A stretch of 64,000 nucleotides of DNA. Source: Podarcis tiliguerta (taxonomy: Eukaryota). Position numbers: made by a program. Below, one piece after another: positions 30,001-33,000 of this stretch (the stretch's first letter is position 1; each line of letters begins with the position of its first letter). Location: assembly GCA_965153285.1 (NCBI GenBank), contig OZ229129.1, one strand, 5' to 3'.

Positions 30001-33000
30001 TCTACCTCCCTTCTTAGAAATGCTTCAAATGAATCACCACCACACCTGGGACAGAACTCTAGTCTCCATTCTACCTATCCCACAATGCAGAAATTCAATC
30101 CATCACTGAGATGAAAAATTTGGGGTAGGGGAAGAGGATGATGGTAATATTGCTTGCCATGCCTGGCTCCTCAGTTTCACCAAGGCATCTGCCTGATGGC
30201 TGTCAGCTAACAAAAAGAGAAAATGAATAAGTGTAGAATAGATGCCACAGAAAGCACTTTAAGTGGATGGAACTGAATAGGTAAGGTGTAGTATGGGTCT
30301 TTAGGGGGGGTGTACACACACATTTTTAATGCTATGTGAAGTATGTTGTAGGCCAGAAGTAGACAATCTGGTGCCTTCCAGGTGTTGTTGTACTACCACC
30401 ATCCCCAGTCAGCATGGCCAAAGGTCAGGAGATGTAGTTCCATGTTGGCTACTTCTGCTGTGCATTGTGATGGTAGCCAGATGGAATTCTGTATTGCAAT
30501 TTATTAGTTCAAGAACAAAGGAAAGTTTGCCGCTTAGTGCTACTGCTTGAGGTGGAGTGAGGTGGGGTCAGTGGTGCTTTTAATTTTTTTTTTATTCATC
30601 TTCCGTTGTAATTTTTTGACAAAGACTTTTGACAAAGTCCCCCATGATATTCTCATGAGGAATCTGGTAAAATATGGGTTGAACGATGTAACTGTTAGGT
30701 GGATTTGTTGCTGGTTGACTGACTGAACCCAAAGAGTACTAATGGTTCCTCATCATCCTGGAAAAAAGTGACAAGTGGGGTACTGCAGGGTTCTGTCCTA
30801 GGCCTACTGTTGTTCAGCATCTTATAAATGACTTGGATGAAGTGGGGGGTGAGTGGGGGGTGGGGCTCATTCAATTTGCAGATGGCACCAGCAGATGAGG
30901 GGTAGCGAATGCCGCAGAAGACAGAATCAGAATTCAAAATGACCTTAACAGATTGGAGAACTGGGCACAAGCTAACAAAATGAATTTCAGTAGGGACAAA
31001 TGTAAGGTTCTGCACTTAAGCAGGAAGAACCAGATGTACAAATATAGGATGGGGGACACAATAGCAGTACCACAAGCTTAACATGAGTCAACAGTGTGAT
31101 GCAGCAGCACAAAAAGGTAATGCTATTCTGCGCTGCATCAACAGAAGTATAGTGTCCAGATTAAGGAAAGGAATAGTACCACTCTATTCTGCCTTGGTCA
31201 GACAACACCTAGAATACTGTGTCCAATTCTGGGCACCACAATTTAAGAAGGATGTTACAAGCTGGAGAGTGTGTAGAGGAGGGCAACCAAGATGATCAAG
31301 GCTCTGGAAACCAAGCCTTATGAGAAACGCTTGAAGAAGCTGGGTATGTTTAGCCTGGAAAGGAGGAGATACGATAGCCATATTCAAATATCTTAAGGCA
31401 GGGGTCCTCAGACTTTTTAAACAGGGGGCAAGTTCACTGTCCCTCAGACACTGTTAGAGACTGGACTATAATTTGAAAAAAATATGAACAAATTCCTATA
31501 CACACTGTACATAATTTATCTGTGGTGCACAAAAAACAAGAAAAACAATATAATATTTAAAATGAAGAACAATTTTAATCAACATAAACTTATAAGTATT
31601 TCAATGAGAAGGATAGGCCCGCTTTTGGCTAATGAGATGGTCAATATCCAGTTGCATATTTCTCACTGCTAGTTGTAGCAAGTGACGCAAGCAGCTTTTG
31701 GCTTATTCCACCTGCTCATTGCAAGAACTGAGTCATGAAGAAATAGGTTTGCTTTTCCACCTCCTCCCTCCCACTCCTTTTTCCTTTAGTGCTGTGTATT
31801 CCCCATTGTAAGCCTGAGAAGGCGGTTTCTTCGCCGACATCTGCAAGCTGCAATGTGATAACACCCCTACCACACTGCACAACTTTTGTGTTTGTGTGGC
31901 CTAGCAGCATGATTAAAAAACAACAACACTTTTTACTTTGGGGGTTAAAATTAAACTGAAAGTTAATTGGGTCGGCCCCACCTCTGCTTATTTTCTGCGA
32001 AAAGCTAAAAGAGTCCATACTGAGCCCTTACCGAAAACGAAAATCCACCAGCTGGAACTGCCTAGCCAGAATCCAAAATCCAACCAGCAAACAAAGCCTC
32101 CCTTCAGCATCCCAGTCCTTACCCCGTGGAAGCTAAACCAGCGGCCCTCAGGCAGCTCCTGGACTCCATCTCCCTTCAGCCCCTGCTACCAGGTCATTCG
32201 GGGGGGCTGATGGGAGTTGTAGTCCACGAGCAGCCTGAGGGGCCCACAGGCTTCCCACACACATGCCTGAGGCAGGGGGCCTGCGAAGCCCCACGTGAGC
32301 GCCAAGGCTGCAGGGTGTTGAGTGGAGGCTGGCAGGAGCTAAACGCGTTCCCTCAGCCCGCAAGGAGAGGGCTCGCCCGTTCCCAGCGAGGAGAGGCGAC
32401 TAGGCCTCACAGGCCTCACAAAAAGGGGCGGCATTTGTGGGCCAAGGTGGAGCCGGCAAGGGGAGCCGGCTGAGGCCCGTGAGGGGAGAGCGAGCATGTG
32501 GCAGCAAGAGAGAGCAGGCGCGTGAACAGAGGAAGTTGCCAGCCTGGCCCACAAGGCAGCGGCAGCAGCAGCGGGTTTTTTCCTTGGGCCTGGGGGAGCC
32601 TGCCTCCCTGCCTCTTGCACCTGAAGATGCCGGGTGGCGGTGGCAATTGCCGGGCGGGCTGGGTTCAGGACCCTGGTGAGCCAGATCTGACCCGCGGACC
32701 ATAGTTTCAGGATCCCTGTCTTAAGGGCTGTCACATGGGAGAGAGAGCATACTTGTTTTCTCCTGCTCTGGAAGGGAGAGGGTCCCTTCCAACTCTAAGA
32801 TTCTATGATTCTGTTTTCAGTCTATAAAATATCATTTTTACAGTGTTTGGACTCCTTTATCCCTCAAGCTACTTAATTAGATATTATGAACACCTTGGAG
32901 ACAGAAATAATTTTGCATTCAGGCTAAACTGCTGTAAGCTGCTCTGGGCTACAATATGGAGGAGAATGCATTTTTGAATTGGTGTTCAGAGCACCTTTCC

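What the first reader, a model, noticed from the sequence alone, without database searches (positions are those of the whole stretch)
31399..32718. Pack-TIR-like hAT: transposase replaced by ~950 bp of apparent host DNA and still mobilised
Seen: TIRs and a perfect 8-bp TSD (TCTTAAGG) bracket 1320 bp inserted mid-CR1, whose frame FKYLK|GCH rejoins across it. Only the last ~30 transposase codons (31601-31690) and ~80 bp of the other arm remain. The interior (about 31693-32640) shows no transposase similarity and contains its own older palindromic MITE (about 32130-32258), so it looks like genomic DNA rather than cDNA. Established: Pack-MULE/Pack-TIR elements duplicate host fragments. The arm resembles, from memory, the OC1/OposCharlie-like hATs known for horizontal transfer among tetrapods. 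Inference: a DNA transposon that captured and moved a host locus fragment.
Basis: partly seen in the sequence, partly recalled or inferred. Interest (0 to 1): 0.7.

Follow-up and report, generated by a model that had tools for sequence, protein, structure and literature searches.

The report
Non-autonomous hAT transposon inside a LINE
This is an ordinary cut-down copy of a hAT "jumping gene" that landed inside an older repeat; that its middle is captured host DNA could not be tested here and nothing found supports it.

Summary
A 1320-bp element (31399-32718) has 16-nt terminal inverted repeats matching at 13 of 16 positions. An exact 8-bp target-site duplication, TCTTAAGG, flanks it. It sits in a CR1-like LINE whose sequence continues across the site, and a second LINE copy at 42250-42100 is uninterrupted there. 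The termini match the published Anolis hAT-HT2 (OC1-type) terminus at 15/16 and 14/16, and the duplication fits that group's NYYTARRN target.

The interior has no protein-family signal. It holds a real palindromic MITE at about 32127-32257.

The interpretation of captured host DNA, moved afterwards, is not shown:
- No second copy of the interior lies within about 31 kb on either side.
- No protein-coding host fragment was detected.
- The source genome and the transposon consensus libraries were out of reach.
- The GC-rich right half is compositionally continuous with the arm.
- With the palindrome removed, the spacing resembles the 564-bp leader published for autonomous OC1. Part of the "cargo" may therefore be the element's own leader.

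Lizard hAT elements with unrelated or foreign interiors, and 208 animal Pack-hATs, are already in print.

Verdict: an ordinary non-autonomous hAT of low interest. The transposase identity of the 33-codon "tail" was not confirmed by any tool.

The parts
31391..31398 (.). Target-site duplication, copy 1 (TCTTAAGG)
   Evidence: Exact 8/8 repeat of 32719-32726. It fits the NYYTARRN target pattern in Table 1 of PMC3014272.
31399..31414 (+). Terminal inverted repeat. This is the left end in the window, and the 3' end if the 33-codon frame is the transposase tail.
   Evidence: 13/16 to the reverse complement of the other end. 15/16 to the published CAGGGGTCCYCAAACT.
31399..31600 (-). AT-rich subterminal arm, 202 bp. 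It would be the 3' non-coding region downstream of the stop codon.
   Evidence: GC 0.31 with no CpG. About 73% identical over 72-77 nt to the arm of the 250-bp hAT MITE at 11690-11939. Its length compares with 201 bp after the transposase gene in OC1_Das-Auto (PMC3621081).
31601..31702 (-). Open 33-codon frame plus its stop codon: putative remnant of the transposase C-terminus
   Evidence: The frame was listed and translated. Its identity as transposase is NOT confirmed. The only support is its position relative to the end, and my recollection that Charlie-type transposases end similarly.
31703..32126 (.). Interior segment A, moderate GC (0.33-0.53), origin unknown
   Evidence: No copy elsewhere in the window and no Pfam match. 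Its 103-codon minus-strand frame is no longer than chance gives: 94 of 1000 shuffles reach it. That frame has no protein relative and no locus in genome contigs.
32127..32257 (.). Palindromic MITE-like element (ends approximate)
   Evidence: 39-nt arms, 87% complementary. Hairpin z-score -6.27. Aligns with 41335-41485 in both orientations, with 44 invariant columns. Only sub-threshold miRNA-hairpin matches in Rfam, the best 35.5 bits against a gathering score of 90.
32258..32640 (.). Interior segment B, GC-rich (0.60-0.70), CpG observed/expected about 0.5, origin unknown. It may be the element's own 5' leader.
   Evidence: Composition is continuous with the adjacent arm. No copy in the window. 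No protein relatives and no locus in genome contigs.
32641..32718 (+). Right subterminal arm, including the terminal inverted repeat at 32703-32718
   Evidence: The terminus matches the published one at 14/16. 32656-32707 aligns weakly with the right arm of the MITE at 11690-11939.
32719..32726 (.). Target-site duplication, copy 2 (TCTTAAGG)
30540..31390 (+). Host repeat, left part: degraded CR1-like LINE (extent approximate)
   Evidence: Translations. Weak RVT_1 match. 75.8% identical over 248 columns to the paralog at 42387-42156.
32727..32830 (+). Host repeat, right part: continuation of the same LINE
   Evidence: Continuity with the paralog across the insertion point. The 3' end motif recurs in four other places in the window.

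Best explanation
This is a non-autonomous hAT transposon of the Charlie group with OC1/hAT-HT2-type termini.

Shown:
- An element bounded by these ends was cut and pasted into a CR1-like LINE, making the 8-bp duplication. It has no transposase gene of its own, so the enzyme must have come from an autonomous relative.

Inferred:
- It keeps both ends and probably the last 33 codons plus the 202-bp trailer of the transposase gene.
- Its interior is a mosaic. The GC-rich right 380 bp, next to the arm, is most likely the element's own 5' leader or sequence specific to its family. Then comes a nested palindromic MITE. The last part is about 420 bp of unknown non-coding DNA, either more of the leader and degenerate 5' coding region, or filler copied in when repair of an excision gap was interrupted.
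- Interrupted gap repair is the usual origin of non-autonomous hAT families. On this reading the copy is an ordinary member of such a family, and no captured host locus has been demonstrated.
For: Structure:
- TSD, TIRs and length.
- The blind TSD+TIR scan gave 5 candidates against a mean of 0.37 in 30 shuffles.
- Empty-site paralog.

Family:
- Termini match the Anolis hAT-HT2 and hAT-N4 terminus at 15/16 and 14/16. The TSD fits NYYTARRN and the terminal motif fits YARNG (PMC3014272, Table 1 and text passages).

Geometry:
- The stop codon lies 202 bp from the end, against 201 bp in OC1_Das-Auto. There the gene spans 565-2370 of 2571 bp (PMC3621081, legend of Additional file 1).
- The first ATG of the longest minus-strand frame is 700 bp from the other end. 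That is 569 bp without the roughly 131-bp palindrome, against a 564-bp leader in OC1_Das-Auto.

Composition:
- The arm (GC 0.63, CpG o/e 0.53) and segment B (GC 0.66-0.67, CpG o/e 0.48-0.55) are alike. The step in GC falls at about 32100-32120, beside the palindrome.

Base rates in print:
- Most Anolis non-autonomous hATs are deletion derivatives. Eight families share only the TIR with an autonomous element, and hobo derivatives carry foreign DNA including other TEs (PMC3014272).
- OC1_Das_NA has an internal region 'of unknown origin' (PMC3621081).

Context:
- Two more hAT-type MITEs with CAGGGG left ends lie in the same window.
Against: - No alignment to an OC1/hAT-HT2 consensus could be made, so neither 'own leader' nor family membership is shown.
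- The spacing coincidences were noticed after the fact, and one ATG among several could have been picked.
- The 103-codon frame is not longer than chance: 94 of 1000 shuffles reach it.
- That frame found no transposase N-terminus among longer proteins: 40 candidates, none at E <= 10.
- The 33-codon tail matched nothing.
- The arms show no similarity to the interior beyond shuffles, so there is no direct trace of template switching.
- The Anolis hAT-HT2_AC autonomous element is listed at only 2246 bp. That leaves less room for a long leader than the 2571-bp OC1_Das.
- The source organism is unknown.
Confidence: 0.6

Rival explanations
1. Repair of an excision gap copied a stretch of unrelated host DNA, already containing a palindromic MITE, between the ends of a hAT element. 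The chimera was then mobilised in trans to this site.
For: - The interior has no transposase signal and no similarity to the arms or to the other hAT MITEs in the window.
- It contains a different TE, as genomic DNA would.
- The mechanism and the class are documented in animals. 370 Pack-TIRs were found in 100 genomes, 208 of them on hAT elements (PMC8277862, passages).
- Capture of genomic DNA including TEs by lizard hobo-type hATs is reported (PMC3014272).
Against: - No parental copy lies within about 31 kb on either side. By comparison, 56.9% of the published animal Pack-TIRs lie within 15 kb of theirs.
- No second TIR-flanked copy is in the window.
- No host coding fragment was found. A non-coding parent remains possible.
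- Only four multicopy, transposed Pack-TIRs were found in the 100 genomes; the rest are single-copy and formed in place.
- Segment B is compositionally continuous with the arm.
- The class is defined by an identified parental copy, and none has been identified.
Confidence: 0.2
2. Formed in place. A longer or autonomous element inserted here. Its interior was later lost or replaced at this same site, by interrupted gap repair after an excision attempt or by later deletions and a nested MITE insertion. On this reading the 1320-bp structure never transposed as such.
For: - One copy with one TSD cannot tell this apart from transposition of the finished chimera.
- Most published animal Pack-TIRs are single-copy and arose by transposition-independent gap filling (PMC8277862).
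- The palindrome could equally be a later nested insertion.
Against: - No clear TSD of its own was seen around the palindrome on reading the sequence.
- No nearby template for gap filling lies in the window.
- Non-autonomous hAT families in lizards are typically multicopy (PMC3014272).
Confidence: 0.15
3. Chance. The inverted ends and the 8-bp repeat are coincidental, and the LINE merely carries an unrelated insertion or rearrangement.
For: Short repeats of 10-14 nt are common in the region. Two of the five candidates in the blind scan look like chance.
Against: - The exact 8-bp duplication sits directly against ends that match a published hAT terminus at 15/16 and 14/16.
- The shuffle expectation was 0.37 per window for any such pair.
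- The paralogous LINE copy is uninterrupted at that exact point.
Confidence: 0.02

Closest known systems
OC1 (OposCharlie1) / hAT-HT2 (RepBase hAT-2) and its non-autonomous derivatives hAT-HT2N1-N3_AC, plus the 'orphan' hAT-N4_AC of Anolis carolinensis
   Same: - 8-bp TSD fitting NYYTARRN and a 16-nt terminus matching at 15/16 and 14/16.
- Size within the published range of 732-1485 bp for the non-autonomous families.
- The stop-to-end distance is 202 bp, against 201 bp in OC1_Das-Auto.
- An interior unrelated to the transposase gene, as in hAT-N4_AC and OC1_Das_NA.
   Different: - Identity of the arms to the family consensus could not be measured.
- The two termini differ from each other at 3 of 16 positions. 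That is more than expected from the 0.7-1.75% divergence from consensus listed for the Anolis hAT-HT2 derivatives. This may be an older or a sister family, or another host species.
Pack-TIRs of animals (Tan et al. 2021, PMC8277862) and Pack-MULEs of plants
   Same: TIR-transposon sequence on both sides of an interior with no transposase similarity, in the superfamily (hAT) that carries most animal Pack-TIRs.
   Different: - The defining parental copy is not identified.
- The interior contains a TE and may be partly native to the transposon.
- No evidence of several copies.
Non-autonomous hobo-N families of Anolis with incorporated genomic DNA (Novick et al. 2011, PMC3014272)
   Same: A lizard-type hAT derivative whose central region holds foreign DNA, including a TE of another kind.
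   Different: The termini differ: hobo families have TAGGCTTG.., whereas this element has CAGGGGTCC... Those families are 1.3-3.4 kb and were shown to be multicopy.

Membership tests
hAT superfamily (non-autonomous element) | 8-bp target-site duplication | tested here: met
   TCTTAAGG on both sides, 8/8. The paralogous LINE carries the 8 bp once.
hAT superfamily (non-autonomous element) | Short TIRs with the terminal motif YARNG | tested here: met
   Both ends begin CAGGG. The 16-nt TIRs match at 13/16. The motif is as stated in PMC3014272.
hAT superfamily (non-autonomous element) | Remnant of a hAT transposase (dimerisation domain or C-terminus) | tested here: inconclusive
   The 33-codon open frame lies at the expected place. 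There is no Pfam match, 0 hits in the representative search and no meaningful PDB hit. The query was too short for the word-indexed search.
OC1 / hAT-HT2 family | Terminus CAGGGGTCCCCAAAC(T), or CAGGGGTCCYCAAACT in the derivatives | tested here: met
   15/16 and 14/16 to the degenerate form; 14/16 and 13/16 to the autonomous form.
OC1 / hAT-HT2 family | Nucleotide identity of the arms and interior to the family consensus (90-95% between host species for OC1) | not testable with these tools
   No Dfam or Repbase is on hand. The consensus sequences are in supplementary files, which are closed (PMC3621081, Additional file 1).
Pack-TIR (Tan et al. 2021) | TIR-transposon sequence on both sides | tested here: met
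Pack-TIR (Tan et al. 2021) | Internal sequence that is not transposon sequence | tested here: inconclusive
   About 131 bp of it is a palindromic MITE. The rest has no match in the window and could not be compared with TE libraries.
Pack-TIR (Tan et al. 2021) | A unique parental copy elsewhere, at least 90% identical, 80-120% of the length, and not flanked by TIR elements | tested here: not met
   None in the 64-kb window. The rest of the genome is not testable with these tools. Criteria as given in the Methods passage of PMC8277862.
Pack-TIR, transposed (multicopy) kind | Further copies of the chimera with different TSDs | not testable with these tools
   None in the window. No genome of the source organism was available. 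The scans of the prokaryote collection genome contigs were empty, as expected.

The most novel reading that the evidence does not exclude
The element is one member of a multicopy 'Pack-hAT' family in a squamate-like genome. An OC1-type hAT would have picked up a GC-rich, CpG-retaining, promoter-like host fragment together with a MITE and spread it to many sites. This would add a fifth multicopy animal Pack-TIR to the four reported, and it would be borne by a horizontally transferred transposon.
Probability: 0.1. Interest if true: 0.45.

Novelty: new member of a known kind. Interest (0 to 1): 0.15.

Why it matters
If it is an ordinary non-autonomous hAT, it matters only as annotation. It dates a hAT insertion as younger than the LINE it interrupts. 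It also shows that OC1/hAT-HT2-type elements were active in this genome.

If the interior does have a parental locus without TIRs and the chimera is multicopy, it would be a rare animal case of transposon-mediated spread of host sequence. The carrier would be a transposon family known for horizontal transfer. Even then both the class (Pack-TIRs on hAT elements) and the mechanism (gap filling) are already described.

Tried and rejected
- **My first recollection was wrong.** I took the arms for SPIN. The published SPIN terminus is CAGYGGTTCTCAACCT, whereas the hAT-HT2 terminus fits.
- **Filler patches at the tail/interior junction.** A 13-nt direct repeat and a 14-nt inverted repeat near 31694-31724 looked like copies of 31599-31633. 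The best arm-to-interior alignment is no better than shuffles, with 43 of 300 reaching it, so I dropped this.
- **The 103-codon minus-strand frame as a transposase N-terminus.** The idea came from a recalled W..YFF-like motif. The frame length is not unusual (94/1000). There is no Pfam match, no relative among longer proteins and no locus. It survives only as a spacing argument.
- **The weak DUF5551 match of the frame 32404-32676.** It scored E 0.0052 and 16.9 bits against a cut-off of 25, one of 21 frames. I followed it up with a homologue search: 651 candidates, none at E <= 1. I treat it as a composition artefact.
- **Shared subterminal k-mers between the two arms.** There are 3 shared 7-mers and no shared 8-mers, which is uninformative.
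- **Similarity of the MITEs at 11690 and 34263 to the interior.** The best scores were reached by 13-22 of 300 shuffles and are not collinear.
- **Rfam.** Nothing at gathering scores in the whole window. In the element, 9 sub-threshold matches: 8 hairpin-type miRNA matches on the palindrome and one snoRNA-family match in segment B.
- **No tRNA-like SINE head** and **no tandem repeats**.
- **A literature search for the terminal 12-mer** returned 3 unrelated papers. **A search for 'hAT-HT2'/'OC1' inside words** returned only unrelated hits.
- **No structure prediction or complex prediction was run.** Nothing here called for one.

Full report
**1. What is there**

Reading 30900-33300 and checking by script shows TCTTAAGG at 31391-31398 and again at 32719-32726. 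Between the two copies lie exactly 1320 bp. These begin CAGGGGTCCTCAGACT and end with the reverse complement of CAGGGATCCTGAAACT, a 13 of 16 match.

To ask whether this is more than chance, I scanned the whole window blindly. The scan looked for an exact 8-bp direct repeat enclosing 80-4000 bp whose ends are inverted repeats at 12/16 or better. It returned five candidates. The mean over 30 shuffles within 200-bp blocks was 0.37, and the largest count was 2. Three of the five have hAT-type CAGGGG left ends: 11690-11939, 31399-32718 and 34263-34658.

The host sequence is a degraded LINE:
- Its frame reads ..AIFKYLK up to the insert and GCHMGE.. after it.
- A second copy of the same LINE on the minus strand (42387-42120) aligns to both flanks. 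It carries the 8 bp once and reads straight through. That serves as an empty-site control.
- Calling the LINE 'CR1' rests on my recollection of the FKYLKG motif. Pfam gives only a sub-threshold RVT_1 match on 1 of 6 frames.

I do not take the window for human.

**2. Which transposon**

Table 1 of Novick et al. 2011 (PMC3014272; passages and table seen) lists the relevant Anolis families:
- The autonomous hAT-HT2_AC (2246 bp) has the terminus CAGGGGTCCCCAAAC.
- Its derivatives hAT-HT2N2/N3_AC and the orphan family hAT-N4_AC have CAGGGGTCCYCAAACT.
- Their target patterns are NTCTAGAN, NTNTANAN or NYYTARRN.

The two ends here match the degenerate terminus at 15/16 and 14/16, and TCTTAAGG fits NYYTARRN.

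Gallus et al. 2015 (PMC4408412; passages) call OC1_Das 'RepBase ID hAT-2' and cite Novick et al. 2010 for OC1 in the green anole. My own first guess, SPIN, was wrong: its terminus is CAGYGGTTCTCAACCT.

Identity of the arms to a consensus could not be measured. No TE library is on hand, and the consensus sequences sit in supplementary files that are closed.

**3. The 'transposase tail'**

On the minus strand an open frame of 33 codons (31604-31702) ends at a stop at 31601-31603. No tool confirms that it is transposase:
- Pfam gave nothing.
- The exhaustive representative search gave 0 hits at E <= 0.001, but it is underpowered for 33 residues.
- PDB gave two ankyrin-repeat matches at E 0.19 and 0.91.
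I left the matter there.

The stop lies 202 bp from the element's end. In OC1_Das-Auto the transposase gene spans 565-2370 of 2571 bp, which leaves 201 bp (Gilbert et al. 2013, PMC3621081; section 4 part 1 and the supplementary-file legends read).

**4. The interior**

It is not uniform.
- Segment A (31703-32126) has GC 0.33-0.53.
- A palindrome occupies about 32127-32257.
- Segment B (32258-32640) has GC 0.60-0.70 and CpG observed/expected about 0.5. The adjoining arm is the same (GC 0.63, o/e 0.53). The LINE flanks stand at 0.12-0.22.

The palindrome is real:
- Its 39-nt arms are 87% complementary.
- As DNA it folds at -42.4 kcal/mol, z -6.27, with 0 of 200 shuffles as good.
- It aligns in both orientations with another palindromic element at 41335-41485, with 44 invariant columns.
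- The core 14-mer, allowing up to 2 mismatches, occurs 3 times in the window against 0.27 expected.
- Rfam gives it only sub-threshold miRNA-hairpin scores.

Nothing shows that the palindrome is older than the rest.

Outside the palindrome the interior matches nothing:
- There is no other copy in the window. With word size 9 and E <= 0.01 there were 3 rows: the element itself, the arm of the MITE at 11690, and the palindrome against itself.
- With word size 7 and the element masked, 13 rows came back. Only three reached E < 0.1, and they concern the two ends of the left arm and the palindrome.
- Of 21 reading frames, 0 passed a Pfam cut-off.
- Three protein searches on interior frames were empty: 8 candidates, 40 candidates and 651 candidates.
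- Two scans of the prokaryote collection genome contigs were empty, as one would expect.
- The arms and the two other hAT MITEs show no similarity to the interior beyond shuffles.

**5. How to read it**

The certain part is that a hAT element without a transposase gene inserted into a LINE. The open part is where the interior comes from.

Three things make me prefer an ordinary non-autonomous element over a demonstrated Pack-TIR.
- *Base rates.* In Anolis most non-autonomous hATs are deletion derivatives. Eight families share only the termini with an autonomous element, and hobo derivatives carry foreign DNA with TEs inside. OC1_Das_NA itself has an internal stretch 'of unknown origin'. An interior without transposase similarity is therefore the rule.
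- *Continuity and spacing.* Segment B continues the composition of the arm. Without the roughly 131-bp palindrome, the first ATG of the longest minus-strand frame lies 569 bp from the end, against a 564-bp leader in OC1_Das-Auto. This was noticed after the fact. It is also weakened by the frame not being unusually long (94/1000) and by its finding no transposase relative.
- *The definition of the class.* Tan et al. 2021 (PMC8277862; passages) require an identified parental copy. Of their 370 animal cases, 208 are on hAT elements and 56.9% lie within 15 kb of the parent. Only four are multicopy, which is to say transposed. Here no parent lies within about 31 kb on either side.

One copy with one duplication also cannot show that the present interior travelled. 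Interrupted gap repair at this very site would leave the same picture.

**6. Verdict**

The kind is known, so interest is low. The decisive tests need data I did not have: a search of the source genome and an alignment to the OC1/hAT-2 consensus.

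Noticed in passing
window 11690-11939: A 250-bp hAT MITE with ends CAGGGGTCAGCAACCT and, reverse-complemented, CAGGGGTAGGCAACCT (14/16). Its exact 8-bp duplication TTCTAAAG also fits NYYTARRN. Its left arm is about 73% identical to the left arm of the element studied.
   Followed up: partly
window 34263-34658: A 396-bp hAT-like MITE flanked by the exact duplication GCATAAGG, with ends matching at 12/16. 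It is CpG-rich and appears on reading to carry internal repeats of a roughly 30-40-nt unit. It may be young.
   Followed up: partly
window 41335-41485: A second palindromic MITE, related to the one inside the element by shared ..TGGAC..CAACTCCCA.. / ..TGGGAGTTG..GTCCA.. cores. I recall this motif as abundant in squamate genomes, but that is recollection only.
   Followed up: partly
window 41878-42387, minus strand: A second copy of the same CR1-like LINE 3' region, 75.8% identical to the interrupted copy. I used it as the empty-site control. The LINE's 3' terminal motif also recurs near 13584-13605, 17765-17795 and 57773-57801.
   Followed up: partly
window 16138-18628 and 59257-61777: Two further TSD+TIR candidates from the blind scan, each 12/16 and without hAT-type ends. 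They are compatible with chance or with other transposon families. The first spans an assembly gap.
   Followed up: no
whole window: None of the 127 reading frames of 75 residues or more outside the element gave a Pfam match above its cut-off. There was no tRNA and no Rfam family. The window looks like gene-poor, repeat-rich vertebrate DNA. It holds five runs of N totalling 860 bases, which I left untouched.
   Followed up: no
window 18001-20000: This 2-kb bin has a markedly negative GC skew of -0.217, against values between about -0.13 and +0.10 in all the other bins. Unexplained.
   Followed up: no
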